64,000 bases of DNA, from assembly GCA_910588545.1 (NCBI GenBank), contig CAJUOU010000001.1, positions 547,975 through 611,974 of the forward strand, written 5' to 3'. The stretch comes from an uncultured Christensenellaceae bacterium (GTDB taxonomy: Bacteria; Bacillota; Clostridia; Christensenellales; UBA3700). The position numbers and the translations under genes were made by a program. Shown one piece after another: positions 10,365-54,304 of this stretch (position 1 is the stretch's first letter; every line of letters begins with the position of its first letter). The notes under the pieces are model-generated. The model was given only the letters and a program-made list of their open reading frames with translations. It was not told the DNA's origin and ran no database searches.

Positions 10365-10718
10365 TTTATTCCTCCTAATTGTACATTCATAAATGATAAT
10401 ATTTTTTATGAACTTTTAATCTTATTTAAATTATACCATATTATGGACAAGTAATCAATAGTTTATGAAATTTTATACATATTTTTGACATATATTTTGC
10501 CTAATCTTTAGATAATGTCAATAATTTTATATAAAAATTAAATTTTAGTACCGATTTTTAGGGGATTATTTTTTATTTAATAATTTTTTTATTGAACAAT
10601 TTATGCAAAATTATTAGCATTTACAAGCATTTTGCGATTGTAAATGCATTTAAATCCAAATAGATTACCTTAACTTTACAATCTATATACCTATATAATA
10701 CATATTTGTCGTACAAAA

Positions 10719-43094: not shown

Positions 43095-43682
43095 CTAATC
43101 AAATACTATACTATAAATATTTTTATTAGCTATTTTTTCAAAATACTCTTTTAATTCTATATTTTTATCCCATTTATCATGTGGATAATAACCATATCGA
43201 TTTTTCACGTCTTGCATACGTAATTCTATCTCAACCACTCCGTCAGCAGTCCCCAAAGCATCACAAAGTTGAATCAGCTTGTCATAATCGTCATACTCCA
43301 ACGTCAAAAGTTCATTTTCAAGTTCTTTTTGTTCATCTAAAGAAATATCGAAATTTCCTATATATGAGTGCATATCCTTAATGCCGAACGAATGTGTCAA
43401 GCATATTCTTGCGACTTGAAAATATCCTAATTTCAACATATATTTATACCCGTCATAAACATGCCCCAAATGGCGCGTCCCAAACTTTCTACCTATATCA
43501 TGCAATAATCCCAATACATACGCTTTTTCGCTATCCATACCACATGCATCGGCAATTTTTTGAGCGCAAATAGCAACATAACGACTATGGTTGCTCCATA
43601 GCCCTATATTGTGTGTTTCAGCTTCTTTTAACAACTCTTCCGCTGCTTTACGTGAAGGTAATCCTGTATCAAATTCATTCAT
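43095..43682 (-). CDS. HD-domain phosphohydrolase
   Basis: 195 aa; H...LLHDIGR motif. Confidence 0.8.
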   Translation of the reverse strand: MNEFDTGLPSRKAAEELLKEAETHNIGLWSNHSRYVAICAQKIADACGMDSEKAYVLGLLHDIGRKFGTRHLGHVYDGYKYMLKLGYFQVARICLTHSFGIKDMHSYIGNFDISLDEQKELENELLTLEYDDYDKLIQLCDALGTADGVVEIELRMQDVKNRYGYYPHDKWDKNIELKEYFEKIANKNIYSIVFD

Positions 43683-43836
43683 ATAAATATTTTAACACAG
43701 TTAAACAAAAAAATCAAATTAACTAAACAAAGCATGCAGATGTTTTTTTTGCTATACCAAAATTCGAAGCAAAATGCTGGTTTTCAATGGCATTTCTACG
43801 GCTTATCACGACACAATTACAAATCAAAAATGGCAT

Positions 43837-43866
43837 AAAAAAACCACTAGACTACTTGCCTAGTGA
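43837..43866 (-). terminator. tRNA-operon terminator (copy in attL)
   Basis: cactag/ctagtg hairpin followed by T7 on the minus strand, just 3' of tRNA-Tyr. Confidence 0.7.
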
Positions 43867-43868
43867 TT

Positions 43869-43953
43869 TGGTGGGCAGGGGTGGATTCGAACCACCGAAA
43901 GCGCTGCTGACGGATTTACAGTCCGTTCCCTTTGGCCACTCGGGAACCTGCCC
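43869..43953 (-). tRNA. tRNA-Tyr (GTA), 85 nt with long variable arm and encoded CCA; left copy
   Basis: Reverse complement GGGCAGGTTCCCGAGTGGCCAAAGGGAACGGACTGTAAATCCGTC...GGTTCGAATCCACCCCTGCCCACCA folds as a class II tRNA with anticodon GUA. Confidence 0.9.
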
Positions 43954-43960
43954 ATATAAA

Positions 43961-44008
43961 TGGAGCTGGTGATCGGAATCGAACCAACAACCTGCTGATT
44001 ACAAATCA
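43961..44008 (-). pseudogene. 3' fragment of tRNA-Thr (TGT), from the anticodon loop to CCA, displaced by integration
   Basis: Identical to the 3' 48 nt of the intact tRNA-Thr at 54229-54304. The 5' half is missing. Confidence 0.9.
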
Positions 44009-44085
44009 AGCAAATAAAATGTGTAACCAATAACGCAAAGCGACCATACTATTTCTTTATTAGGAATAAAAAACTTTTCTCGTGA

Positions 44086-44222
44086 CACAAATTCCCCGCC
44101 CCTTGGGGCTTTATACAGGTGGAATTTGTGCAAATGCTCATAGGCGGTAGGACCAGCAAGGACCTACAAATCAACCCGATAGCCGAGCCCAAAGGAAGTC
44201 GCAGCGCGACGACTGCGGGAGT
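44086..44222 (+). other. GC-rich, hairpin-dense non-coding segment (candidate single-strand origin or structured RNA)
   Basis: 10-bp stem cacaaattcc/ggaatttgtg enclosing gcccc/ggggc, then gtagg/cctac and cgcag/ctgcg or gtcgc/gcgac stems. No plausible ORF. GC far above the local background. Confidence 0.4.
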
Positions 44223-44248
44223 AAAAAAGGGACTAATTCACTAGCCCC
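44223..44248 (-). terminator. terminator of the xre-lipoprotein operon
   Basis: Minus strand ggggctagtgaattagtccc followed by T6. Confidence 0.65.
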
Positions 44249-44257
44249 TTTGTTTTA

Positions 44258-44878
44258 TTAATTTGACGAAACATAAAAACCACAATCAGTGCAAACTTTA
44301 ACATTTGTAAAATTTATTTCTTTATATTCCTCATAAAAAAATCTAAAATCGCCATAAGCAGAAGTTGAACTAAAATAAATAGTTATATAGTCATTTTTGC
44401 TATTTGTTTTATGTGAAGTAATTTTTGCAGAAATTAAATTATTATGTTTACAATTACGCATCTCATTAGTTTTTTTTGCTTTTAATTTTACAAAATTTTC
44501 TGGGTTTTCATCAGACCATCCTGTACAAATTACTTTTGCGTGGTCATATTCTTTTGTTGTTTGTAAAGGTATATATTTTGAGTATAAACCATTCATAGGT
44601 ACTTCATTTTCAAATGTTTCAATTATTTTTCCGTCTAAATATAAATCACATTTATATTTTATAGCATTTAATTTTATATCAGAGTCGTGACAAATATCAA
44701 TCATATAATATTCGATTTTTCCTGTATCAGTATTTGTAGAAATGCCTGTTAAATTTGCTGTAGCAATAATATAATTATCTTCAACAAAGTATTTACCTTT
44801 AGGCAATGTACAGCTTGTTAATAAACATAGGCAAATAGACATTATTAAAAGTATAAATATATTTAAAATTTTTTTCAT
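44258..44878 (-). CDS. lipoprotein, unknown function (element-encoded, co-transcribed with the repressor)
   Basis: 206 aa; signal peptide with lipobox LLTSC. Its start is 1 nt after the xre stop. Confidence 0.7.
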   Translation of the reverse strand: MKKILNIFILLIMSICLCLLTSCTLPKGKYFVEDNYIIATANLTGISTNTDTGKIEYYMIDICHDSDIKLNAIKYKCDLYLDGKIIETFENEVPMNGLYSKYIPLQTTKEYDHAKVICTGWSDENPENFVKLKAKKTNEMRNCKHNNLISAKITSHKTNSKNDYITIYFSSTSAYGDFRFFYEEYKEINFTNVKVCTDCGFYVSSN

Positions 44879-44879
44879 A

Positions 44880-45164
44880 TCATTTACCTACCTTTATGTT
44901 AGAATTAGAAACGTTATTAAAGCTATTTGATATATGTACTGCTCTATTGTTGTAATCATTTAAACAAAGAATTTCGTTAGCGTCTAAGTCTAAAATAGCG
45001 CATAAGTTTGCTAGCGTGTCTAAAGCAGGCATTTTTTTTCCATGTACATAACAAGATATTTGTGTTTGATTAATTCCTAATGCTTGAGATATTTGTTGTT
45101 GAGTTAAACCACTTTGTTTTATTGCTTCTGCAATTTTTTTTTGTATTTGAATTAAACTTATCAT
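44880..45164 (-). CDS. XRE-family HTH repressor
   Basis: 94 aa from ATG 45164 (GAGGAG SD); LTQQQISQALGINQTQISCYVHGKKMP HTH_3 pattern. The longer track ORF (to 45347) crosses the promoter region. Confidence 0.85.
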   Translation of the reverse strand: MISLIQIQKKIAEAIKQSGLTQQQISQALGINQTQISCYVHGKKMPALDTLANLCAILDLDANEILCLNDYNNRAVHISNSFNNVSNSNIKVGK

Positions 45165-45188
45165 ATTGCTCCTCTTTTGTAAAAATTT

Positions 45189-45264
45189 TACCCGATAGGT
45201 ATAAAAAAAATCTTGACTTATACCTATTGGGTATGTTACTATTATAGTATACCTAATAGGTATA
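45189..45264. promoter_or_regulatory. divergent promoter region with three related operator palindromes
   Basis: tacccgataggtata (45189-45203), tatacctattgggta (45219-45233) and tatacctaataggtata (45248-45264) share TATACCTA/TAGGTATA half-sites. TTGACT at 45213-45218. Confidence 0.65.
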
Positions 45265-45297
45265 AATATTTTTAAACAAAAAGGAGCAAACAAACAA

Positions 45298-45663
45298 ATG
45301 GAATTTAATTGGAAAGACAAAGAAATAGAACTGCAAGAGCAAATCAAAAAATGCGTTAAGGAATATAACGATTATATCAAGACAGATTTTGCTCAATGTT
45401 TAGCAAATGGTAATAAAGATTATGGCAAAGACTTTACTGCCGTATTATGGTGGAATGGCAAGAATATTGAGGTTTATGAATGTGGTCCATTAAAAGATTT
45501 TAAACACGGTCCAAAATCTATTATAGATTTTTATCATTTTTCAAAAGCACGAACAAAAGTAATTATTTGTAGTACTGGTGAGGATATAACTGACAAAGTA
45601 GAAATTAACCCACTTTATCGAGATATTTTTGACGATAAACTTTTAAAGTCGCTTAACATTTAA
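45298..45663 (+). CDS. hypothetical protein (element early gene)
   Basis: 121 aa, AAAGGAG SD, no motif recognised. Confidence 0.6.
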   Translation: MEFNWKDKEIELQEQIKKCVKEYNDYIKTDFAQCLANGNKDYGKDFTAVLWWNGKNIEVYECGPLKDFKHGPKSIIDFYHFSKARTKVIICSTGEDITDKVEINPLYRDIFDDKLLKSLNI

Positions 45664-45675
45664 GGAGCAATAAAA

Positions 45676-46008
45676 ATGGAAACAGTTTTAAATATTGTTG
45701 TGAAAGAACCAGGCAAAGCCCCCGAAGTTAAATTAATTAAACATGATATTGAGGAATTTCAAAAAATTGTTGGTGGATTATTTGATATGGTCCGTGTACC
45801 ACTTATGGAAGATATGATTTATATGGTATGTAATGATACCGGCAAATTGGATAACTTACCTTTTAATTTTTACGAGCCTGCAAGATACGACGTTATAGTT
45901 GGTAATGTATTTTTTGTTGCAGGAGATTATGAAGGCAATACATTAAGTTTAAATAAAAATCAAATTGAAAAAATCAAAAGTTATCTGAGTTATCAGACAC
46001 TTTGGTAA
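45676..46008 (+). CDS. DUF3846-like protein
   Basis: 110 aa; VVKEPGKAPEVKLI...QKIVGG...VCNDTGKLDNLP...VGNVFFVAG matches the remembered DUF3846 pattern, common on mobile elements. Confidence 0.55.
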   Translation: METVLNIVVKEPGKAPEVKLIKHDIEEFQKIVGGLFDMVRVPLMEDMIYMVCNDTGKLDNLPFNFYEPARYDVIVGNVFFVAGDYEGNTLSLNKNQIEKIKSYLSYQTLW

Positions 46009-46037
46009 TAAAAATTAATTTTTAGGAGGAATGAGCA

Positions 46038-46334
46038 ATGTTTTCATTCAAAACAAAAAACGGTAAAGAAGTAACAATTTATGACCCATCAGAACGTGGT
46101 GCAATGTATGCAAATGATTTAAAGAATGGCACAAATATTAATGGCCAAGAATTATCAAAAAATCAAAAAGCATATCGAGCGGGATATTTAAAGGCACAAA
46201 ACGATAATGCAAAAGCATATAATGCCCGTAAATTTAAAGAAGAAAATCCTGACTATAAAAATAAGTTAAAACATTCTGTAGCAGAGATTAAAAAGCAACG
46301 AAAAAAAGAGTCTAAAAAAGGTGATAAAAAATGA
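46038..46334 (+). CDS. small basic protein, unknown function
   Basis: 98 aa, K/R-rich C-terminus, GGAGG SD. Confidence 0.6.
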   Translation: MFSFKTKNGKEVTIYDPSERGAMYANDLKNGTNINGQELSKNQKAYRAGYLKAQNDNAKAYNARKFKEENPDYKNKLKHSVAEIKKQRKKESKKGDKK

Positions 46335-47119
46335 GCAAGGCAAAAATAATAGCAATAAAAATAGTAGTTTTTTTGTTGATTATAGCAGTAGTTTTAACAA
46401 TTAGTTATTTTTTTCATGGTTTAATGTACGATTTAATTCATAAACCTACAGCAGACGTTCCTCTACAAGATATAGTCGAGCCTGAAAAGCCAAACAATGA
46501 AGATAATTCAAATGTTGTTGCAAAAGAACTTGTAAGCAAAACTATTGTTAGTGAAAAATATGGAACTTTTGAAATACCTGTCAATAGTATGCTTTTGTCA
46601 AATACGACCAATAATCTAATTTTTGCTGATACTACTGATTTTAATTATATTTTTGATAAAGAAATTGAAAAATTAAAAGACAATAAAGACATTACTGCTG
46701 AATCTACTTTTGTATTTAAATGTAAAAGAGATAACCTTCTTTCAGATATATTAAATGGTACTAATGTTAATGTTCCGAGCGGAAATTGCTATTTTGTTAT
46801 TGAAAATCAAAAAATTCAGTATTCATTTTCAGATAATTTATATGAAAAGATTTATCCATTTTTGATATATGATTCTATGACATTAGCAATATCATTGCCT
46901 AATGATGAAATTACCCCTTTTCAAGAAATTGATGTGAATTTTTATTGTAAGTCATTATATTTAAATGAAACTATTGAAGATTATGCAGGAGAATTAACTT
47001 TAGAATTATATTTTTCAGATGTAATAATTTCTGACACCGGCTGTCCTCTTACTGACTATATATTTGAAGAGATTATGTCAGACGAAACAACAAAAATTAT
47101 TTATAATTATGCAGAGTAA
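46331..47119 (+). CDS. N-terminally membrane-anchored protein, unknown function
   Basis: 262 aa; a single TM (IIAIKIVVFLLIIAVVLTISYFF). ATGA overlap with the upstream gene. Confidence 0.65.
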   Translation: MSKAKIIAIKIVVFLLIIAVVLTISYFFHGLMYDLIHKPTADVPLQDIVEPEKPNNEDNSNVVAKELVSKTIVSEKYGTFEIPVNSMLLSNTTNNLIFADTTDFNYIFDKEIEKLKDNKDITAESTFVFKCKRDNLLSDILNGTNVNVPSGNCYFVIENQKIQYSFSDNLYEKIYPFLIYDSMTLAISLPNDEITPFQEIDVNFYCKSLYLNETIEDYAGELTLELYFSDVIISDTGCPLTDYIFEEIMSDETTKIIYNYAE

Positions 47120-47131
47120 GGAGTAACAGAT

Positions 47132-48454
47132 ATGAGTAACAAAAAAATTAAAATCATAGCGATAATACTTGTTTTAATCTTAATTTTATCTACAGGTTTT
47201 GGTCTTGTAGCCCATTATTCTAATTGGTTTACAAATTGGGATAAGTTTAATCCGTTTAATTGGGGTAAAAATGACCAAGACAATAAACAAGATAAATTTT
47301 TCGCTGGTGCTTATGTAAACCCAAGTATCAACAAAGGCATTTCTGTTGTAAGTTCAGCTATAGCAGCTGAAGATTTCGAAAGTAATAATATTTCGGCTGA
47401 AGCTGATGCAGGATATACATTAACTGCTACACTTCAATCAAACCAAACACGTAATATGCAAATAGATTGGTTTGTATCATGGCAAAAAGAATCTGATTGG
47501 AGTAATGGTAAAAATGTTTCCGATTATTTAACTTTAAATACTACAACTACTCAGAGTGGCGAAGCTGTAATTTTAACATGTCATAAAGACTTTGCCGAGA
47601 AAATTAATATTGTAGCAACATCTAATTTAGATAAAACTAAAAAAGCTTTTTGTGTAGTTGATTATATTAAAAAAGTTAAATTTATTAATTATAGAATTGG
47701 CGAAACTGAATTTAGTAATATAAGTTTACATAGTATAAATTTTATTCATGCTAATGTACCATGCTATGTTTATTATGAACCGGTATATTCTGAAAATTAC
47801 ACTTTAAATGTTGATTATGAATGTGAAGTTGTAGGTAAATTTACAGATACTTTTGGATATGGTCAAGACCAAATATATGGTAATGTTAATAGCGAAAATA
47901 AATTTGCTTTTTCTAATGGTGCATCAATTTATGATTTATTACCATTGACAGAAGAAATTAAGTCTTTTGTATTAAAGCTTATAGAAGCTCGTTCATATAC
48001 AGAAGATGGATATATAAATGGAGTTTTTTACATTGATTATATTGACGAAGTAATTGCAGAATATGATTTAGTTTATCAGAATATTTCATCTGAAGATAAA
48101 AAAAATAGATATGTAGAAGCTGCTTGTTTTTTATATTATACTCTTAAAGGACTGAGAGAAAATGGCAAAATAAACTTACATTATTTTAAATCTTATGTGG
48201 ATACTCATGCTCCTCTTGAGGATTTTTTAACAGTAATAACTTTTAATTTTATGAATTTAAATTTGTCGAATGTAGAAGAATTTGTTGAAAGACTTAAACA
48301 ATGTGCTCAAAACGGAGTTGGTGTAATGGAATATACGTTAACATATACCGCCGCTGATATTGTTTATACTACAAGTATTCAATTTGGATATAATGAGTCT
48401 TCTTTAAATGTATTCAATGTAAATGTAGATTTACCACCAAATATAGTAATTTAA
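47132..48454 (+). CDS. N-terminally membrane-anchored large protein, unknown function (candidate structural)
   Basis: 440 aa; a single TM (IKIIAIILVLILILSTGFGLVA); AAGGAG SD. Confidence 0.65.
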   Translation: MSNKKIKIIAIILVLILILSTGFGLVAHYSNWFTNWDKFNPFNWGKNDQDNKQDKFFAGAYVNPSINKGISVVSSAIAAEDFESNNISAEADAGYTLTATLQSNQTRNMQIDWFVSWQKESDWSNGKNVSDYLTLNTTTTQSGEAVILTCHKDFAEKINIVATSNLDKTKKAFCVVDYIKKVKFINYRIGETEFSNISLHSINFIHANVPCYVYYEPVYSENYTLNVDYECEVVGKFTDTFGYGQDQIYGNVNSENKFAFSNGASIYDLLPLTEEIKSFVLKLIEARSYTEDGYINGVFYIDYIDEVIAEYDLVYQNISSEDKKNRYVEAACFLYYTLKGLRENGKINLHYFKSYVDTHAPLEDFLTVITFNFMNLNLSNVEEFVERLKQCAQNGVGVMEYTLTYTAADIVYTTSIQFGYNESSLNVFNVNVDLPPNIVI

Positions 48455-48511
48455 TATTTCTTCCCCATAAAAGGCGTTGGCAGTCCTTGTAAAAAACAAT
48501 CTGCTACAATT

Positions 48512-48582
48512 AGGACGTATAATTATGTATTTTCATTTTGTTTGTTTCCTTAATACATTGATTTAAAGTTATTATACGTCCT
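48512..48582 (+). other. 12-bp perfect inverted repeat with nested 7-bp stem, in the only intergenic gap of the structural block
   Basis: aggacgtataat (48512-48523) pairs with attatacgtcct (48571-48582). Inner stem atgtatt (48525-48531) pairs with aatacat (48552-48558). Followed by ttaatttttt. Confidence 0.5.
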
Positions 48583-48602
48583 TTAATTTTTTAGGAGTAA
48601 TT

Positions 48603-49070
48603 ATGAAAAAATTATTTTTTATATTGATTTTAATAGTATTTGTTTTTATTTTTTGTGTTTCTTGTACTGAAGATTCTTCAGACGTAAATATTGACGTTGA
48701 TTATACCTCTAATTTGAGTATTGATAACATATCGAATAACAATATTGAAATTCAATATACTTTGATACCAAGTGAAGCATATAAAGCAAATAATATTCCT
48801 AATGATACAATTTGTGCTTATATCTTTTCTGCATCGATATTGAGTGATAATTTAGAAGATAAAAGTTTATATTGGGATATATTTTGGTGTGACCCAACGA
48901 TAACAAATGATACAAATAATTATATTATTGTTGAACGTACAAGTGAGACAACTGCAAAAGTTATATGTAAAAAAGGCTTTAGAGTACCTTTAACTTTGAA
49001 AATTACAAGTAATACTAATCCAGATATAAATGCGAGCTGTAATATTAATTATGTATTAAAGGAGTTGTAA
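48603..49070 (+). CDS. secreted lipoprotein, unknown function
   Basis: 155 aa; signal peptide with lipobox FCVSC; GGAG SD. Confidence 0.65.
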   Translation: MKKLFFILILIVFVFIFCVSCTEDSSDVNIDVDYTSNLSIDNISNNNIEIQYTLIPSEAYKANNIPNDTICAYIFSASILSDNLEDKSLYWDIFWCDPTITNDTNNYIIVERTSETTAKVICKKGFRVPLTLKITSNTNPDINASCNINYVLKEL

Positions 49071-49071
49071 A

Positions 49072-50493
49072 ATGCAAAATAAAATGAAATATAAAAATTA
49101 TACTATTGCATTAATTATCGTTTTGATATTAGCAATAGCGTTTAATGTTTTTAGCTTAATATTATCTAAAGTTTATGCAGAAACTTCCAATAGCACAAAC
49201 GTTTTAACTGATTTACAAAAAGACCCTAATTTTAAAGTGTCAGACTATCTAGACAAGTCGGATGACTACTCAATTCAAATTATTCAAATTGCAGAAAGTA
49301 CTGCTAAAGAATTACTTATATATACATTTCAGCCTTGCCAGCGAACTCATTATTTAGTAGCAACTTGTGTGAATATGTCATTGTCTAAAAATGTTGCTGG
49401 CACAAATTTATATAATTTGGAATTGTTAAGTCAAGAAGGCGTTTTTTGCAAGTATAAAGTCATGGACGTTGTAGTTACTGATACAGACTATAGATACTAT
49501 AACATAACTTCAATTTATCGTGCTTGGAATGAAGATTTAGACGACCCAAGTGGCAATGACAATACAATTAATGGTATTGCTTATGCTGTTGGAAAATTAT
49601 ATAAAGCTTCTACTGTTGACGGAAAAGTTACATATACTCATGAATTTGTGGAAACTATAGAAATAGTAAATCCTTATGTAGGTTTTTTAACTTATAGCAA
49701 TGGTTTTTACTTATGGGCAGAATCTTGCAACTCACATTTTATTGCTTTTGATACTGATAAACAGATTGATTTTTTAATGGAAGCAGATGTTTATTACACT
49801 TTTCAAGATTTTAGAAAAGACACAGGCACTATTAATGACGGCGAAAAGCCTTTAAGCAAACCCGAAGAAACGAAAAAAACTGTTACTTATATTGAAAAAG
49901 GCGAAACATTAGATTATGGAGTTTTTGCTGAAAAATTTACATGGAATCGTATTTCAAAAAGCGAAGATTTTATCAATGATAAAGACAATAATTTAACGCA
50001 AAATGCTAAAGACCAAGTGGGCAAAACAAAATGGGTATTGCGATTTGTTGAAACAAAATATAATTTTGTTAATAGTGGAATGGCTGGTTGTTCTGAAACT
50101 TATACCAAAATTGAGAATGTCTCTATTTTAAGGTTGAAATTTGTTACAAACGGACGTCTTTATGATTTAGGAGCTGTTTCAAATAAAATAACCAGCGATA
50201 ATGTTCCAGATGGTGGTCAATCAAATAAGTGGGATGTTTTCGGTTGGCTTGTCGATAAGAGTGGTATACCTGTTTGGGCATTTATATTAATTATTGTGTT
50301 GATATTTTTAGCAATTTTATTGCCTGTATTAGGGCTTATATTCCCTGTTGTTGGACAAGCCCTTAAAGTAGTATTTAAAGCAATAGGAAAACTAATTAAA
50401 TGGTTATTTAATGCTTTAGTTTGGATAATTTCTTTGCCAATAAAAGGTATTGTTTGGATAGTAAATAAATGTAAAGGTGGTGGCACTGCGTGA
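49072..50493 (+). CDS. secreted protein with C-terminal membrane anchor (pIII-like topology; candidate adsorption/minor coat protein)
   Basis: 473 aa. N-terminal signal (…SKVYA/ETS) and a hydrophobic C-terminal 90 aa. Placed immediately upstream of the Zot-like gene, as gIII/gVI are in inoviruses. Confidence 0.55.
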   Translation: MQNKMKYKNYTIALIIVLILAIAFNVFSLILSKVYAETSNSTNVLTDLQKDPNFKVSDYLDKSDDYSIQIIQIAESTAKELLIYTFQPCQRTHYLVATCVNMSLSKNVAGTNLYNLELLSQEGVFCKYKVMDVVVTDTDYRYYNITSIYRAWNEDLDDPSGNDNTINGIAYAVGKLYKASTVDGKVTYTHEFVETIEIVNPYVGFLTYSNGFYLWAESCNSHFIAFDTDKQIDFLMEADVYYTFQDFRKDTGTINDGEKPLSKPEETKKTVTYIEKGETLDYGVFAEKFTWNRISKSEDFINDKDNNLTQNAKDQVGKTKWVLRFVETKYNFVNSGMAGCSETYTKIENVSILRLKFVTNGRLYDLGAVSNKITSDNVPDGGQSNKWDVFGWLVDKSGIPVWAFILIIVLIFLAILLPVLGLIFPVVGQALKVVFKAIGKLIKWLFNALVWIISLPIKGIVWIVNKCKGGGTA

Positions 50494-51311
50494 TTTGTAT
50501 AATCTTTGCTCCACCAAGGACCGGTAAAACGTGTTTTTTAACTCACGTGTTAAATACTTATATGTTTGATAATGCTCGTAATTACAAAATGCAACAAGAG
50601 ATAAGACAAAAGCAAGTCAACGGCTTTGAATTTATTAAAACAATACCGCAACATTGTGTATCTAGTAATTACGGAGTTACCGGGTATAAGTTCAGATACT
50701 CTACTCGTCATAGCCGAATAATAAACCCGTACAAGTTAGGTTTTAAAAATAAATGGGTTGAAACTCATTTTAACTTGCCTTATGAAGTGATAGGTATTAC
50801 AGAAGCACAAAAGTACTTAAATAGCAGAATGTCGCAGTACTTCCCTGATTGGCAAAGCCGTTGGTATGAACAGCACGGCCACAATTATTTAGATATATTT
50901 CTTGATACTCAACGTCCGGGTTTAATAGACGTTAATATTCGAGAATTATCTCACTTTATAGAAATTATTAATCTTAAGAAAAAGTACGATAAAAATGGTA
51001 ATATTACAGCTCTGACTTGGACCATTAGGCATATTGATAATAATGCATTATATGAGCGATATATTTCGAGTGGTAAAAAAGACAGTGCGTGTTATGAACA
51101 ATTAATTGTAACAGCAAATTATAACGTTTTTGAGTGTTACGAAAGTACATGCTGCAAGCCTAAATTTTATCAAGGACATTTTGAGGAAGATATAGACTAT
51201 TTGTTTTCTTCTCAAACGGAAGAAACTTTGGACGGATATATTGAGTATTTGAAAAACAATGACGACGAATTGCCGGACAATTTTTATCAAAAAAGGAGTT
51301 TAAATAAATGA
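50490..51311 (+). CDS. Zot/pI-family assembly ATPase (N-terminal ATPase domain only, no TM segment)
   Basis: 273 aa. N-terminal Walker A APPRTGKT, VIGITEAQKYLNSR (compare LDECG/IDEC Walker B) and QHGHNYLDIFLDTQRPGLIDVNIRE (compare HRHxGWDIxxxTQ...R of Zot/M13 pI). GTGA overlap with the upstream gene. Confidence 0.7.
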   Translation: MICIIFAPPRTGKTCFLTHVLNTYMFDNARNYKMQQEIRQKQVNGFEFIKTIPQHCVSSNYGVTGYKFRYSTRHSRIINPYKLGFKNKWVETHFNLPYEVIGITEAQKYLNSRMSQYFPDWQSRWYEQHGHNYLDIFLDTQRPGLIDVNIRELSHFIEIINLKKKYDKNGNITALTWTIRHIDNNALYERYISSGKKDSACYEQLIVTANYNVFECYESTCCKPKFYQGHFEEDIDYLFSSQTEETLDGYIEYLKNNDDELPDNFYQKRSLNK

Positions 51312-51637
51312 TTTTTCATAAAAACGATTTAATTAATGAAACGTTGGACAAGCATTTTGCGACATGGATGCACACTTTGAATACCGCAGATTTTGTACCA
51401 AAAAAGTATTTAAACTATGTGGACCGAATTATTTTTGAAAATCTTAAGAAAAAGTTAAAAGAGGTAGATATTTATAACCTACTTTACTTGGAATTACAAG
51501 GCTATAAATTAGGTTTTTTTGACAAACTTAAGATAAGTTTTTCCGGTATTAGACCATTGTTTGAAAATGAACTTCAAGCAATACTTAAGGCTCAAGAGAA
51601 ATCTGCAGAACAACAAAATAAAATCGAAAACAAATAA
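51308..51637 (+). CDS. hypothetical protein
   Basis: 109 aa, ATGA overlap with the Zot-like gene; no motif recognised. Confidence 0.55.
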   Translation: MIFHKNDLINETLDKHFATWMHTLNTADFVPKKYLNYVDRIIFENLKKKLKEVDIYNLLYLELQGYKLGFFDKLKISFSGIRPLFENELQAILKAQEKSAEQQNKIENK

Positions 51638-51678
51638 AATGCTCGCCCCCATTGAGCAAAAGGGGAAAGGAAATATAT

Positions 51679-52074
51679 ATGAACAAAATTGAAATCATTG
51701 GCAGATTAACTGCCGACCCGCAACTTAAGGTCATTAATGGCGACGTGCAAGTTTGCACTTTCACTGTAGCAGTAAATCGAAGATTTAACCGAGAAGAAAC
51801 TGATTTTTTTCCTGTGACAGTTTGGAGAGAAACTGCAATAAATTGCAATAAATTTTTAGCAAAAGGAAATCTTGTCGGAATATGCGGCTCATTGCAAATA
51901 CGAAAATATGACGATAAAGATGGTATCAAACGTATCGCTGTAGATTTGCAGGCAGACGAAGTTGATTTTTTGACTCCTAAAAGTGAAAATGATTCTACTG
52001 ATAAATCAACAGAAAATAAAACTCCAAGTGTTAGCGAACTTAAAGAAGTTGAAGACGACGATATGCCATTTTAA
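51679..52074 (+). CDS. ssb: single-stranded DNA-binding protein
   Basis: 131 aa from ATG 51679 (GGGGAAAGGAAA SD). MNKIEIIGRLTADPQL OB-fold N-terminus and a DDDMPF acidic tip. Confidence 0.92.
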   Translation: MNKIEIIGRLTADPQLKVINGDVQVCTFTVAVNRRFNREETDFFPVTVWRETAINCNKFLAKGNLVGICGSLQIRKYDDKDGIKRIAVDLQADEVDFLTPKSENDSTDKSTENKTPSVSELKEVEDDDMPF

Positions 52075-52085
52075 GAGGTGTATCA

Positions 52086-52892
52086 ATGAACAACCAAATT
52101 TTATTTAAAGAGTGGTTGAAAGATTTTTACGAGTACAAAAGTAAGAGAGTTAAGCCTAGTACTCTAAGAAATATAGGCATAGTGATTAGGTGTCACGTGC
52201 CTATATTTTTATACAACACTCCCCTTGTAAAAATAACAGACCAAGACTTGGAAAAAATGATATATGACGTTAAAGCAATGCGTATGCGACAATACACTTA
52301 TCAAGTCATTAATGAGGCTTTAGATAGGGCTGTAAAACGTAATATAATTGATTTTAACCCCATAACTAATTTGGATAGCATAAAACATAGACAACGTAAA
52401 GGACGTGCTTTAAACGCCGTAGAACGGGCTAAATTGCTTGAAAAGGTACAGCAACCTACTTTAAGGTTATTGTTCGAATTTTACATTTATAGCGGTTGTA
52501 GACGTTCAGAGGCATTATCTTTGACTTGGGACGATATAGATTTTGCAGGCAAAAAAATTATTATTCCCGGTACAAAAACTGAAGCAAGCGAAAGAGTGTT
52601 GCCAATGTCAAAACCTTTGCTTGAGATAATGAAAAAGTTGTCGCACAGTGCGACAACAAATAAGGTTTTTAACTACTCTCCAGATTATGTTTCTAAACAA
52701 TTTAAAAAGTATTGTCCTAAGCATAAACTACATGATTTAAGACATACTTTTGCGACAATATGTCTTGAAAGTGGTGTCAGTATTCGCGTTGTACAAAAGT
52801 GGTTGGGACATACCAGCATTGATACTACAGCAAGAATATATACACATGTAATTGACGAATTTCAACGTCGAGAAGCAGACAAAATATGTTAA
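52086..52892 (+). CDS. tyrosine site-specific integrase
   Basis: 268 aa; R...HDLRHTFAT...LGHTSIDTTARIYTH (R-H-R-Y catalytic pattern). Confidence 0.92.
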   Translation: MNNQILFKEWLKDFYEYKSKRVKPSTLRNIGIVIRCHVPIFLYNTPLVKITDQDLEKMIYDVKAMRMRQYTYQVINEALDRAVKRNIIDFNPITNLDSIKHRQRKGRALNAVERAKLLEKVQQPTLRLLFEFYIYSGCRRSEALSLTWDDIDFAGKKIIIPGTKTEASERVLPMSKPLLEIMKKLSHSATTNKVFNYSPDYVSKQFKKYCPKHKLHDLRHTFATICLESGVSIRVVQKWLGHTSIDTTARIYTHVIDEFQRREADKIC

Positions 52893-53794
52893 AGTATGAA
52901 GATTTAAAAAAGCGCATATATTATAATGAAAAATACATAGTGCCTAAGTTAAAGGCTGTTGAACAGGATAAACTTGCATTTAATATTGAGAATTGTTCGA
53001 AAACAAGTTGCATTGCGACTTGTTCCGGTTGTGGCGCTAAATATTATGCTGGCTCAAGTTATTGTAAATCAAGATATTGTGCTGTTTGCGCTAAACTTAG
53101 GGCATTGGCATGGCTTTGCAAGTTGGTCCCGTTGCTTGAGCAATATTCTAGCAATGGATATAAACTTTTTATGTTAAATTTTACAATAAAAGACCATAAG
53201 GACCTTGACTACATACTTAATAAGTTAATGAAAAGTTGGCGAATAATGACACATGACGATAAACGTTCTAAGAAAGAGTTTCGTCGCCTTAATGACGGGG
53301 GTATAAAATCTCTTGAGATTAAAATAGGCGAAAACTCTGGAATATGGCATCCTCATATACATAGTATAGTGCTTTTAAAGACTGAAGAAAAAGTCTACCA
53401 ATACAATGATTATAGAAAACTTTGGGAATATTGCTCTGCTCTTGCTTATGGTACAACTGACAAAGTCGGGAGTGTTGATATACGAGGACTTAAGGGGTAT
53501 AAGGGAGATATTGTATCCGCTGTAGTTGAAACATTTAAGTACATGACTAAACTAGATTGGTTAAATATCCCGGATGAACAATTACGTGAATTGTTTAAAG
53601 TTACAAATAATAGACGTTTTATATCTTCTTGGGGTGTACTTTATCGAGTTAATCAGCAAGTAGAGGCATTATTAAACGAAACTAGCGAAGATAAATTAAA
53701 AAATATGGCTTGTAAAGTCTGCGGTTGTACTGAGTTTGAACTTGAAAACCATTTAACTAAAATGTTGTCAGCAGACATACTTGATTTAAAATAG
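52886..53794 (+). CDS. rolling-circle replication initiator, pC194/pUB110 (Rep_1) type HUH endonuclease
   Basis: 302 aa; CKSRYCAVCAKLRALAW (compare CxxRFCPxCxWRR), FMLNFTIKD (motif 1), WHPHIHSIVLL (HUH), ETFKYMTK (Ex3Y catalytic pair). Confidence 0.85.
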   Translation: MLKYEDLKKRIYYNEKYIVPKLKAVEQDKLAFNIENCSKTSCIATCSGCGAKYYAGSSYCKSRYCAVCAKLRALAWLCKLVPLLEQYSSNGYKLFMLNFTIKDHKDLDYILNKLMKSWRIMTHDDKRSKKEFRRLNDGGIKSLEIKIGENSGIWHPHIHSIVLLKTEEKVYQYNDYRKLWEYCSALAYGTTDKVGSVDIRGLKGYKGDIVSAVVETFKYMTKLDWLNIPDEQLRELFKVTNNRRFISSWGVLYRVNQQVEALLNETSEDKLKNMACKVCGCTEFELENHLTKMLSADILDLK

Positions 53795-53805
53795 TAAGCA
53801 AAAAA

Positions 53806-53830
53806 AACGGGAGGTTTACCCCCGTTTTTT
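53806..53830 (+). terminator. terminator after rep
   Basis: aacgggagg-ttta-cccccgtt followed by T6. Confidence 0.75.
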
Positions 53831-53882
53831 GCTTGCTATTTTGAATTTTTACAAAAGCCAGATTTAAAATTTTGCTAAAATA

Positions 53883-53967
53883 ATGTGCATGTACGCGCGC
53901 ATATACACACGCACACCCGTAATTAATACACGTACGCGCACTTGCCAGCGCGCACGCACGCACGCAT
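53883..53967. repeat. three perfectly alternating purine-pyrimidine (CG/CA) tracts: 34, 16 and 20 nt
   Basis: 53883-53916, 53926-53941 and 53948-53967 alternate R/Y without exception. GC-rich island in about 30% GC DNA. Confidence 0.9.
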
Positions 53968-53982
53968 TTTTTGTTTTTCTGT

Positions 53983-53989
53983 CTTGATA
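53983..53989 (+). promoter_or_regulatory. candidate double-strand-origin nick site CTTGATA
   Basis: tttttctgtCTTGATAatat resembles the conserved pC194/pUB110 dso nick region. It lies about 190 nt downstream of rep on the rep coding strand. Confidence 0.6.
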
Positions 53990-54093
53990 ATATAGAAATA
54001 AGTGGGGTAAATGTTACACTTTGTTACCATAATTAAATAAGTGGTATTTTAGGCTAAAATTTAGGTAAAAAATAGGACTTTAAGACTAAGGCT

Positions 54094-54276
54094 AAAAATG
54101 GCATAAAAAAACCACTAGACTACTCGCCTAGTGATTTGGTGGGCAGGGGTGGATTCGAACCACCGAAAGCGCTGCTGACGGATTTACAGTCCGTTCCCTT
54201 TGGCCACTCGGGAACCTGCCCATATAAATGGAGCTGGTGATCGGAATCGAACCAACAACCTGCTGATTACAAATCA
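54094..54276. repeat. 183-bp direct repeat, right copy (attR)
   Basis: See the left copy. It ends inside the anticodon loop of the intact tRNA-Thr. Confidence 0.95.
54137..54221 (-). tRNA. tRNA-Tyr (GTA), right copy
   Basis: Identical to 43869-43953. Confidence 0.9.
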
Positions 54277-54304
54277 GCTGCTCTGCCAATTGAGCTACAC
54301 CAGC
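54229..54304 (-). tRNA. tRNA-Thr (TGT), intact; integration target
   Basis: Reverse complement GCTGGTGTAGCTCAATTGGCAGAGCAGCTGATTTGTAATCAGCAGGTTGTTGGTTCGATTCCGATCACCAGCTCCA; anticodon loop tTTGTAa. Confidence 0.92.

What the first reader, a model, noticed from the sequence alone, without database searches (positions are those of the whole stretch)
43816..44008. Unusually long att duplication carrying a whole tRNA-Tyr, plus a third copy of the 11-bp core at the outer edge
The att repeats are 183 bp (43826-44008 and 54094-54276). They contain the operon terminator, a complete tRNA-Tyr and the 3' 48 nt of tRNA-Thr. The lysogen therefore has two identical tRNA-Tyr genes, and the element must carry about 170 bp of tRNA-operon sequence in its attP. 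The single mismatch (T43857 versus C54125) lies in the terminator loop. The repeat ends in attacaaatca, the tRNA-Thr anticodon-loop region. That same 11-mer occurs again at 43816-43826, overlapping the outer boundary of the left repeat by one base. In about 30% GC DNA I roughly estimate on the order of 1e-6 per position for this 11-mer, so its presence at the boundary is unlikely to be chance. It could be a secondary core site, a scar of an earlier integration, or a sign that the tRNA-Tyr segment itself was brought in by this element family.
Basis: seen in the sequence. Interest (0 to 1): 0.6.

Follow-up and report, generated by a model that had tools for sequence, protein, structure and literature searches.

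The report
Prophage att repeat spanning tRNA-Tyr
A 10-kb virus-like element sits in a tRNA-Thr gene of a mouse-gut Christensenella-like bacterium and carries its own copy of the rest of the tRNA operon (half of tRNA-Thr, all of tRNA-Tyr, the terminator), which is a known way of integrating harmlessly; the extra 11-base copy at the edge is ordinary host DNA that is already there in a strain without the element.

Summary
There are 183-nt direct repeats (43826-44008, 54094-54276) with one mismatch. Each holds the 3' 48 nt of tRNA-Thr(UGU), a complete tRNA-Tyr and the operon terminator, and ATTACAAATCA occurs a third time at 43816-43826. The repeats are attL and attR of a 10.1-kb prophage (tyrosine integrase, Rep_1, SSB, Zot-like ATPase) inserted in the tRNA-Thr anticodon loop. 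An element-free strain of the same species (L047) matches the in-silico excised site 1833/1833. That empty site already has the third 11-mer directly after the terminator, so it is host sequence that predates this integration. The same element also sits in hosts that lack the 11-mer, and none of about 70 contigs read shows a junction that uses it. Thr-Tyr adjacency is native across the family and order, and tRNA-Tyr is the host's only Tyr gene, which explains why attP must carry it. Relatives of the element (G001, G094) also carry Thr 3' plus a whole Tyr but have different terminators. Identity blocks up to about 250 bp are described in the literature. The boundary coincidence has p of roughly 1e-3. 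It is chance or an inert pseudo-core next to an old capture breakpoint. Overall this is ordinary, with a modest curiosity.

The parts
54229..54304 (-). tRNA-Thr(UGU), intact. The 5' 28 nt (54277-54304) are host. From TGATTTGTAAT onward (54276 down) the sequence is supplied by the element.
   Evidence: ARAGORN. It is the only tRNA-Thr(UGU) in the genome.
54094..54276 (-). Proximal att repeat (attL in tRNA orientation), element-borne. It holds the core, the Thr 3' 48 nt, the 7-nt spacer, tRNA-Tyr and terminator B.
   Evidence: It carries the 'g' allele (C54125 on the + strand), as do the proximal copies in other lysogens L066, L067 and L084-86.
54137..54221 (-). tRNA-Tyr(GUA), the element-borne copy that stays linked to the operon promoter
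54056..54094 (-). Element arm directly after the repeat: TAGCCTTAG...CCTATTTTTTaccTAAATTTT. I read it as a decayed second terminator plus a remnant of the 3' end of another integrase gene, as found after tRNA-Tyr in G003, G002 and G008.
   Evidence: An exact 9-mer is in register with G003/G008, and the 21-nt local alignment was reached by 14 of 2000 shuffles. Inference.
44009..54093 (.). Body of the 10.1-kb integrated element: HTH repressor 44880-45347(-), DUF3846 45676-46008, Zot-like ATPase 50490-51311, SSB 51652-52074, tyrosine integrase 52086-52892, Rep_1 52886-53794
   Evidence: Pfam and PHROGs. It is absent from the empty site L047.
52086..52892 (+). Tyrosine integrase, 268 aa
   Evidence: PF00589 at 6.4e-27 and PF14659. 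Relatives at 88% (G001), 57% (G094) and 53% (G013) also lie next to tRNA-Thr.
43826..44008 (-). Distal att repeat (attR), the displaced host copy: Thr 3' 48-nt fragment (43961-44008), tRNA-Tyr (43869-43953) and terminator B (43841-43869)
   Evidence: The 'a' allele (T43857) equals the empty-site allele. Joining the flanks through this copy reproduces L047 with 0 mismatches in 1833 nt.
43816..43826 (-). Third copy of the 11-mer (TGATTTGTAAT in tRNA orientation). It is native host sequence immediately after the terminator.
   Evidence: Present at the same place in the empty site L047 and in all same-species contigs L046-L051 and L070. Absent from other hosts of the same element.
43095..43682 (-). 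Host HD-domain gene, used as the flank marker to find empty and occupied sites in other strains
   Evidence: Pfam; the look-up of encoding contigs

Best explanation
**Integration.** The 183-bp repeats are the attL and attR junctions left by site-specific integration of a 10.1-kb prophage. The prophage is integrase-, Rep_1- and Zot-encoding, and it sits in the anticodon loop of the single-copy tRNA-Thr(UGU) gene. That gene is the fifth in a Pro-Met-Asp-Phe-Thr-Tyr operon.

**Why attP is long.** Integration cuts the operon in the middle of tRNA-Thr. The element's attP therefore carries a replacement for everything downstream of the crossover: the Thr 3' half, the spacer, the whole tRNA-Tyr and a terminator. 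tRNA-Tyr is the host's only Tyr gene. After integration the element-borne copy sits next to the Thr 5' half and stays under the operon promoter. The host's original copy is displaced 10 kb away.

**Why 183 bp here.** The repeat reaches 183 bp only in this host species, whose Thr-Tyr-terminator sequence is identical to the element's copy. In other hosts of the same or related elements the identity is 49 to about 147 bp.

**The third 11-mer.** It is ordinary host DNA that follows the terminator in the uninterrupted site. It was not made by this integration and is not needed for it. It touches the repeat boundary because the element's host-identical block ends with the terminator.

**How the block was acquired (inferred).** The element acquired this terminator block by an aberrant, lambda-gal/bio-like excision from a host of this type. 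This placed terminator B in front of an older, now decayed terminator in its arm.

**Chance or cause.** I put roughly even-to-favourable odds on the breakpoint lying next to a core-like 11-mer by chance (p of roughly 1e-3), rather than because a weak pseudo-core promoted the break.

**Status of the steps.** Shown: the junctions, the empty site, the element-borne versus host-borne copies, and the native status of the 11-mer. Inferred: the crossover position in the loop, and the capture route.
For: 1. **Empty site.** L047 comes from a metagenome assembly whose HD protein is 100% identical. It has Pro-Met-Asp-Phe-Thr-Tyr, terminator B, TGATTTGTAAT, then the flank and the HD gene. The window's two flanks joined through the distal repeat match it 1833/1833. 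Joined through the proximal repeat there is 1 mismatch.
2. **Element genes.** Integrase, Rep_1, SSB, a Zot-like protein and an HTH repressor.
3. **Which copy is element-borne.** G001 has an 82-88% related element at the same site. Its proximal copy has terminator B and the same arm, while its distal host copy has a different terminator and no third 11-mer.
4. **Related element in G094** (integrase 57% identical). attL and attR share 141 nt: core, Thr 3' and the whole Tyr. The terminators differ.
5. **Same element in other hosts.** With a 100% identical p206 protein, the element sits in hosts with a 70-nt Thr-Tyr spacer and terminator A (L073, L074) and next to other elements (L066, L072, L075). 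None of these has the 11-mer after its terminator.
6. **tRNA copy numbers.** tRNA-Tyr occurs only at this locus, and tRNA-Thr(UGU) once.
7. **Native order.** Thr-Tyr adjacency is found in about 45 genomes of the order.
8. **Literature.** Islands regenerate the split tDNA and leave a displaced fragment, and the anticodon-centred class is the commonest (PMC4383910). Identity blocks extend up to about 250 bp when attP carries a replacement for the target gene (PMC10111431).
9. **Layered arm.** TAGCCTTAG and CCTATTTTTTnnnTAAATTTT after the repeat match the post-Tyr sequence of G003, G002 and G008.
Against: - Activity and the exact crossover are therefore not shown.
- The 11-mer is rare (5 background copies in 1.64 Mb), so its position exactly at the boundary is improbable by chance (p of roughly 1e-3).
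- The only other species with terminator B (G006) has TTTGTAATC 15 nt after it. This hints that a core-like motif has been associated with this terminator for some time.
- The distal copy carries the 'element' allele g in some lysogens (L050, L070). The allele argument for the crossover position is therefore not clean.
- MAFFT can also align terminator B with terminator A as diverged orthologues. This weakens the two-layer reading of the arm.
Confidence: 0.8

Rival explanations
1. The 11-mer is a pseudo-core (half-site) that caused the boundary. Integrase bound or nicked it in an ancestral lysogen. That break promoted the aberrant excision which joined the host's Thr3'-Tyr-terminator block to the element arm. 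On this reading the host-identical block of attP ends exactly at the 11-mer for a mechanistic reason.
For: - The identity block ends at or one base into the 11-mer.
- The 7-nt loop TTTGTAA (the presumed overlap) plus 3 nt on the left and 1 nt on the right are identical to the true core.
- The element arm shows terminator B directly in front of a decayed terminator-A-like remnant, as expected after an illegitimate join at that point.
- The coincidence has p of roughly 1e-3.
Against: - The join lies 2-3 nt to the left of where a cut at the loop border would fall.
- There is no core remnant at the repeat/arm junction in the G000, G001 or L067 elements.
- The right arm of the site matches only 1/5.
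- No present-day junction uses it among about 70 contigs.
- Similar T-run plus TTGATTTGTAATT sequences follow unrelated terminators at G000 C2:126088 and G007 C5:69018. Such sequence is therefore not unusual in AT-rich post-terminator DNA.
Confidence: 0.15
2. The 11-mer is a scar of an earlier integration or tandem array at the same tRNA-Thr. It would be the core of a former attR whose following Thr 3' half and the earlier element were deleted.
For: - The locus is an integration hot spot. It holds this element, a large-serine-recombinase element at the 3' end of tRNA-Tyr (L046, L049, L066), and a 462-aa integrase element whose remnant flanks tRNA-Tyr in G003.
- The sister species G003 has 1.6 kb of different DNA where this species has the 11-mer plus about 100 nt.
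Against: - Tyrosine-recombinase excision is conservative and leaves no scar.
- Producing 'terminator-core-unrelated DNA' needs two separate deletions, each ending exactly at the core.
- The 40 nt after the 11-mer show no trace of the Thr 3' half (sequence).
Confidence: 0.08
3. The host's own Thr3'-Tyr-terminator block was donated by the element family, so the 'host' copy is an old element-borne copy fixed after loss of a prophage.
For: - Terminator B travels with the element into hosts that have other terminators (G001, L067, L073/L074 lysogens).
- In G003 the Thr3'-Tyr-terminator A block adjoins an integrase remnant, so such fixation appears to happen in the genus.
- The Tyr SNP is shared between the element and host copies within G001, which suggests exchange between copies.
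Against: - Thr-Tyr adjacency is native across the order.
- G006-type genomes have terminator B behind a different, 165-nt Thr-Tyr spacer and no element.
- Homologous exchange within the repeat gives the host the element's 5' part, not its terminator.
- Removing a prophage while keeping the element-borne block needs a deletion ending exactly at the end of the block.
Confidence: 0.07

Closest known systems
Anticodon-loop-class tDNA integration by tyrosine integrases (Williams 2002 classes; Islander 'A' sites)
   Same: - The element is flanked by the regenerated tRNA gene and a displaced 3' fragment in direct orientation.
- The integrase gene lies inside the element.
- The identity block starts in the anticodon stem-loop and runs 3'-ward.
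- An uninterrupted site exists in a relative (PMC4383910).
   Different: The identity block runs on through a second, complete tRNA gene and the operon terminator. The carrier is a 10-kb Rep_1/Zot element rather than a tailed prophage or genomic island.
Haemophilus influenzae phage HP1 att sites (Waldman, Hauser, Scocca; recalled from memory, not verified here beyond its tRNA-Leu target)
   Same: As I recall, attP and attB share about 182 bp. That stretch starts in the anticodon region of a tRNA gene and includes a further downstream tRNA gene of the operon, so the lysogen keeps an intact operon. The target tRNA-Leu and the 18-bp minimal attB are cited.
   Different: HP1 is a P2-like myovirus of a proteobacterium with a heterobivalent integrase, arm sites and Cox. 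Here the integrase is only 268 aa, and the host is a Christensenella-like Firmicute.
Extended att identity blocks at icd and tRNA genes (TIGER/Islander work)
   Same: [quoted passage not shown] P2/186-like prophages have 'long common core sequences' whose length outside the tRNA gene differs widely (PMC3448106).
   Different: Nothing essential. 183 bp is within the described range.
Aberrant excision of lambda (gal/bio transducing phages), as an analogue for how attP gained the terminator block
   Same: Host DNA adjacent to attR ends up in the excised genome through an illegitimate join.
   Different: Here this is inferred only from the layered arm (terminator B in front of a decayed terminator-A-like remnant). 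No intermediate was observed.

Membership tests
tDNA-integrated element with tyrosine integrase (anticodon-loop class) | Intact tRNA gene at one end and a 3' fragment of the same gene at the other, in direct orientation | tested here: met
   tRNA-Thr at 54229-54304 and its 3' 48 nt at 43961-44008
tDNA-integrated element with tyrosine integrase (anticodon-loop class) | Tyrosine integrase gene within the bounded segment | tested here: met
   52086-52892, PF00589 at 6.4e-27
tDNA-integrated element with tyrosine integrase (anticodon-loop class) | Uninterrupted attB in a related genome that equals the two flanks joined through one repeat | tested here: met
   L047 matches 1833/1833
tDNA-integrated element with tyrosine integrase (anticodon-loop class) | Identity block begins at the anticodon stem-loop | tested here: met
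   It begins at TGA of the 5' stem arm here and in G001, and at the first T of the loop in G094
tDNA-integrated element with tyrosine integrase (anticodon-loop class) | Strand exchange within a 6-8 bp overlap at that position; excision to a circle with attP | not testable with these tools
Secondary (pseudo) attachment site | Overlap sequence identical to the primary core | tested here: met
   TTTGTAA is present within 43816-43826
Secondary (pseudo) attachment site | Inverted core-type binding arms flanking the overlap | tested here: not met
   TTTGA/TTGTG versus GCTGA/TCAGC gives 3/5 and 1/5 (sequence)
Secondary (pseudo) attachment site | Recombinant junctions that use the site in some genomes | tested here: not met
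   None among 25 + 22 + 23 contigs read around the flank gene, the element end gene and Rep, nor in 5 metagenome loci
Filamentous-phage-like (Zot/pI ATPase, rolling-circle Rep) prophage | Rolling-circle Rep, SSB and a Zot/pI-type assembly ATPase in a genome of about 5-12 kb | tested here: met
   Rep_1 at 4.4e-21, SSB at 2.4e-27, phrog_197 Zot-like at 4.9e-06. The Zot-like match is weak.
Filamentous-phage-like (Zot/pI ATPase, rolling-circle Rep) prophage | Major coat protein gene; filamentous virion | not tested
Outside this finding.

The most novel reading that the evidence does not exclude
The 11-mer is a weak integrase half-site, and the locus preserves the footprint of how an attP identity block grows. 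Integrase action at a pseudo-core just beyond the operon terminator would have triggered an aberrant excision. That event loaded the host's whole Thr3'-Tyr-terminator block into the element in front of an older, now decaying captured terminator. If so, this is a layered attP recording successive host captures.
Probability: 0.15. Interest if true: 0.5.

Novelty: new member of a known kind. Interest (0 to 1): 0.25.

Why it matters
The finding gives a clean, well-bounded example, with an empty site, of an attP that restores a whole operon tail rather than one tRNA gene. Here integration would otherwise cut the cell's only tRNA-Tyr gene off from its promoter. Comparison of hosts shows three things. 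The length of an att repeat depends on the host-element pair: 49, about 141-147 or 183 bp for one element lineage. The tRNA part of attP matches each host. The terminator part travels with the element. This is useful for att-site prediction and for choosing integrase/attB pairs, but it does not change how such systems are understood. The third 11-mer, the point of the finding, turns out to be host sequence with no sign of use.

Tried and rejected
2. **Free or circular form.** I searched for the terminator-B pattern in IMG/VR and found 0 hits. Contigs encoding the terminal element genes were all integrated forms. One 10,371-nt contig (L076) ends inside the repeat and is uninformative.
3. **Is the host flank after the 11-mer a decayed Thr 3' half or related to the element arm?** There is no similarity (host_post versus elem_post was reached by 1184 of 2000 shuffles).
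4. **Is the G006 flank orthologous to this flank?** This would date the 11-mer. The local alignment is not significant on its own (reached by 278 of 2000 shuffles), although it is collinear. G006 has TTTGTAATC 15 nt after the terminator. I leave this undecided.
5. **The distal copy in G013** (element in tRNA-Thr CGU) is not in the assembly.
6. **A promoter reading of the 11-mer** (TTGATT as a -35 box). The scan places the HD promoter at 43717-43689, not at the 11-mer.
7. **Standalone tRNA-Tyr locus.** I first took the tRNA-Tyr of G006, G007 C15 and G008 for a separate standalone locus. L069 and L045 show it is the same operon with a 165-nt Thr-Tyr spacer.
8. **Conservative recombination routes** (core 1 x core 3, core 2 x core 3, integration at core 3, a two-core circle). 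None yields the observed order repeat-element-repeat-core without extra deletions.

Full report
**1. Observation**

All tRNA genes in the region lie on the minus strand, in the order Pro, Met, Asp, Phe, Thr(UGU) 54229-54304, Tyr 54137-54221. A second tRNA-Tyr lies at 43869-43953. The repeat finder returns one 183-nt family, 43826-44008 and 54094-54276, with 99% identity and 10268-nt spacing.

Read in tRNA orientation, each copy starts with TGATTTGTAAT. That is the last three bases of the 5' anticodon-stem arm, the seven-base loop TTTGTAA, and one base of the 3' arm. The copy then continues through:
- the remaining Thr 3' half (48 nt of the gene in all);
- a 7-nt spacer;
- the complete 85-nt tRNA-Tyr;
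- a hairpin terminator followed by T7-ATGCCATTTTT.

The one mismatch (T43857 versus C54125) is at the first loop position of that hairpin. The same 11-mer stands again at 43816-43826 and shares one base with the end of the left repeat. So the description is accurate.

**2. Rarity of the 11-mer**

The assembly (1.64 Mb, 19 contigs) has 8 copies on both strands. Three are at this locus and five are elsewhere, none of those in a tRNA gene. An 11-mer recurring on the same strand 160-204 nt away happens at 1.9e-4 per position in this genome.

**3. What lies between the repeats**

The 10.1 kb at 44009-54093 encodes the following:
- an HTH repressor with a downstream 206-aa protein (minus strand);
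- DUF3846;
- several proteins without family matches;
- a Zot-like ATPase (phrog_197, 4.9e-06);
- SSB;
- a 268-aa tyrosine integrase (PF00589, 6.4e-27);
- a Rep_1 rolling-circle initiator.

This agrees with earlier notes of the scan on the same element. The genus-level relatives carry titles 'uncultured Christensenella sp.' from a mouse-gut MAG catalogue.

**4. The empty site**

The flanking HD-domain protein (43095-43682) is encoded with 100% identity on many public contigs. One of them, L047, has no element. It reads Pro-Met-Asp-Phe-Thr-Tyr, terminator, TGATTTGTAAT, tgtgtcg..., HD gene.

Joining the window's two flanks in a script through the distal repeat reproduces L047 with 0 mismatches in 1833 nt. 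Joining through the proximal repeat gives 1 mismatch. This shows three things:
- The repeats are attL and attR of a real insertion.
- The left (distal) copy is the host's and the right (proximal) copy is the element's.
- The third 11-mer belongs to the uninterrupted host site.

All other same-species contigs that reach this point (L046, L048-L051, L070) have it too.

**5. Which copy the element carries, and how far**

- **G001** (same genus) holds a related element (integrase 88%, Rep 84%, Zot-like 81% identical) at the same site. Its proximal copy has the same terminator ('terminator B') and the same arm as here. Its distal, host copy has a 9-nt spacer, a different terminator and no extra 11-mer.
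- **G094** (another genus, integrase 57% identical) has attL and attR sharing 141 nt: loop, Thr 3' half, spacer and the complete tRNA-Tyr. The tRNA sequences are that host's own, and the terminators differ.
- **G013** has a relative next to tRNA-Thr(CGU) with a terminator of its own.
- **This very element** (terminal 206-aa protein 100% identical) also sits in hosts whose Thr-Tyr spacer is 70 nt and whose terminator is of another type ('terminator A'; L073, L074). It also sits next to other elements (L066, L072, L075). In those hosts the uninterrupted identity is only the core plus the Thr 3' half.

Carrying Thr 3' + Tyr + a terminator is therefore a trait of the lineage. The 183-bp length is special to the pairing with this host species. 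The 11-mer after the terminator is not required for integration.

**6. Why the whole tRNA-Tyr**

ARAGORN on the whole assembly finds tRNA-Tyr only at this locus. The two copies are the duplication, so there is one copy per element-free genome. tRNA-Thr(UGU) occurs once. Thr followed by Tyr is the native order in about 45 of 61 related genomes from about 30 genera.

An insertion in the Thr anticodon loop would separate the only tRNA-Tyr gene from the operon promoter. An attP that replaces the whole operon tail avoids this. This is the known logic of tDNA integration (PMC4383910). Identity blocks up to about 250 bp, sometimes reaching into the terminator, are described (PMC10111431; PMC3448106). 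From memory, phage HP1 of Haemophilus has a 182-bp block with a downstream tRNA gene. I could only verify its tRNA-Leu target.

**7.

*Secondary core site.*
- The 11-mer keeps the loop but only 3/5 and 1/5 of the flanking stem arms.
- No contig among the 25, 22 and 23 read around the flank gene, the element-end gene and Rep shows a junction at it. Neither do the five metagenome loci.
- The element integrates without it.

*Scar of an earlier integration.*
- The locus is a hot spot. A large-serine-recombinase element inserts at CCACCA|A at the 3' end of tRNA-Tyr (L046, L049, L066, L072).
- A 462-aa integrase element follows tRNA-Tyr in G002, G007 and G008, and only its last 68 codons remain in G003.
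- However, conservative recombination leaves no scar. I found no route to 'terminator-core-unrelated DNA' without two deletions that each end exactly at the core. The sequence after the 11-mer has no trace of the Thr 3' half.

*tRNA-Tyr brought in by the element.* This is refuted for the gene order. For the terminator block it is unlikely, because G006-type genomes have terminator B behind a different, 165-nt spacer without any element.

**8. Why the identity ends there**

Directly after the repeat the element arm reads TAGCCTTAG-tcttaaagt-CCTATTTTTTaccTAAATTTT.
- In G003 and G008, TAGCCTTAG is the first nine bases after tRNA-Tyr and forms the 5' arm of terminator A.
- CCTATTTTTTtggTAAATTTT there is the end of the 462-aa integrase gene. 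The local alignment was reached by 14 of 2000 shuffles, and the 9-mer is exact and in register.
- The G000 and G001 elements also have about 50 nt more between the terminator and the conserved arm motif TTTACCsCACTTATTTCTATAT than the G094 and G013 elements have.

I read this as a layered arm: an older captured tail (terminator A type, now decayed) with a newer capture (terminator B, intact) in front of it.

Homologous exchange inside the repeat can refresh only the tRNA part. The shared Tyr SNP within G001 fits this. Such exchange cannot move a terminator. Terminator B therefore must have entered by an illegitimate join whose host-side breakpoint lies just before the 11-mer. Whether the 11-mer helped cause that break cannot be decided.

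Two points argue for coincidence:
- The join is 2-3 nt away from where a cut at the loop border would fall.
- T-run plus TTGATTTGTAATT also follows unrelated terminators at G000 C2:126088 and G007 C5:69018.

MAFFT offers an alternative alignment in which terminators A and B are diverged orthologues. The layered reading is therefore an inference.

**9. Verdict**

The att structure is real and well explained, and it is a new member of a known kind. The third 11-mer is host DNA that predates the insertion, is dispensable, and shows no sign of use. Chance or an inert pseudo-core are the remaining readings. Interest is low to moderate.

Noticed in passing
L046 5800-5830, L049, L066 (oriented 10640-10660), L072, L075: A second mobile element with a 515-aa large serine recombinase (Resolvase + Recombinase + Zn_ribbon_recom) inserts at CCACCA|A, the 3' end of tRNA-Tyr. 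It occurs in many strains of this species, sometimes in tandem with the 10-kb element. It keeps terminator B and the 11-mer on its far side.
   Followed up: partly
L041 8341-8550 (G003); L044 939-2327 (G007 C41): A 462-aa tyrosine integrase gene reads toward tRNA-Tyr/terminator A in G002, G007 and G008. In G003 only its last 68 codons remain (90% identical), followed by a P-loop kinase-like gene and a TfoX_C gene before the HD gene. The tRNA tail in G003 therefore probably derives from a decayed element.
   Followed up: partly
L043 8684-8969 and L044 662-892 (G007): G007 has a full operon with a 70-nt Thr-Tyr spacer on one contig. On another contig it has a Thr 3' fragment, a 165-nt spacer and tRNA-Tyr with a different terminator. 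This looks like attL and attR of a further element in the same tRNA-Thr.
   Followed up: no
G000 C2:126088-126100; L081 318-330 (G007 C5:69018): The 13-mer TTGATTTGTAATT follows a hairpin plus T-run terminator by 8-10 nt at two unrelated loci. The G007 site matches 26 of 29 nt of the window's T7-ATGCCATTTTTGATTTGTAATT. This may be only AT-rich post-terminator sequence.
   Followed up: partly
L075 3778-4689: In one metagenome contig the distal tRNA-Tyr of the lysogen is followed by a different insert encoding a Viral_Rep (PF02407) protein.
   Followed up: no
window 43857 / 54125; L050, L070: The terminator-loop SNP is 'g' in element-borne copies of most lysogens and 'a' in the empty site. Some lysogens have 'g' in the displaced host copy too, and the G001 element has 'a'. 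This suggests exchange between the two repeat copies, or host polymorphism.
   Followed up: partly
L069 (oriented 246-540), L045: The Thr-Tyr spacer is 7, 9, 70 or about 165 nt in different species of one genus. The long forms are bracketed by TTTATA repeats. The tail of this operon is remarkably mosaic.
   Followed up: no
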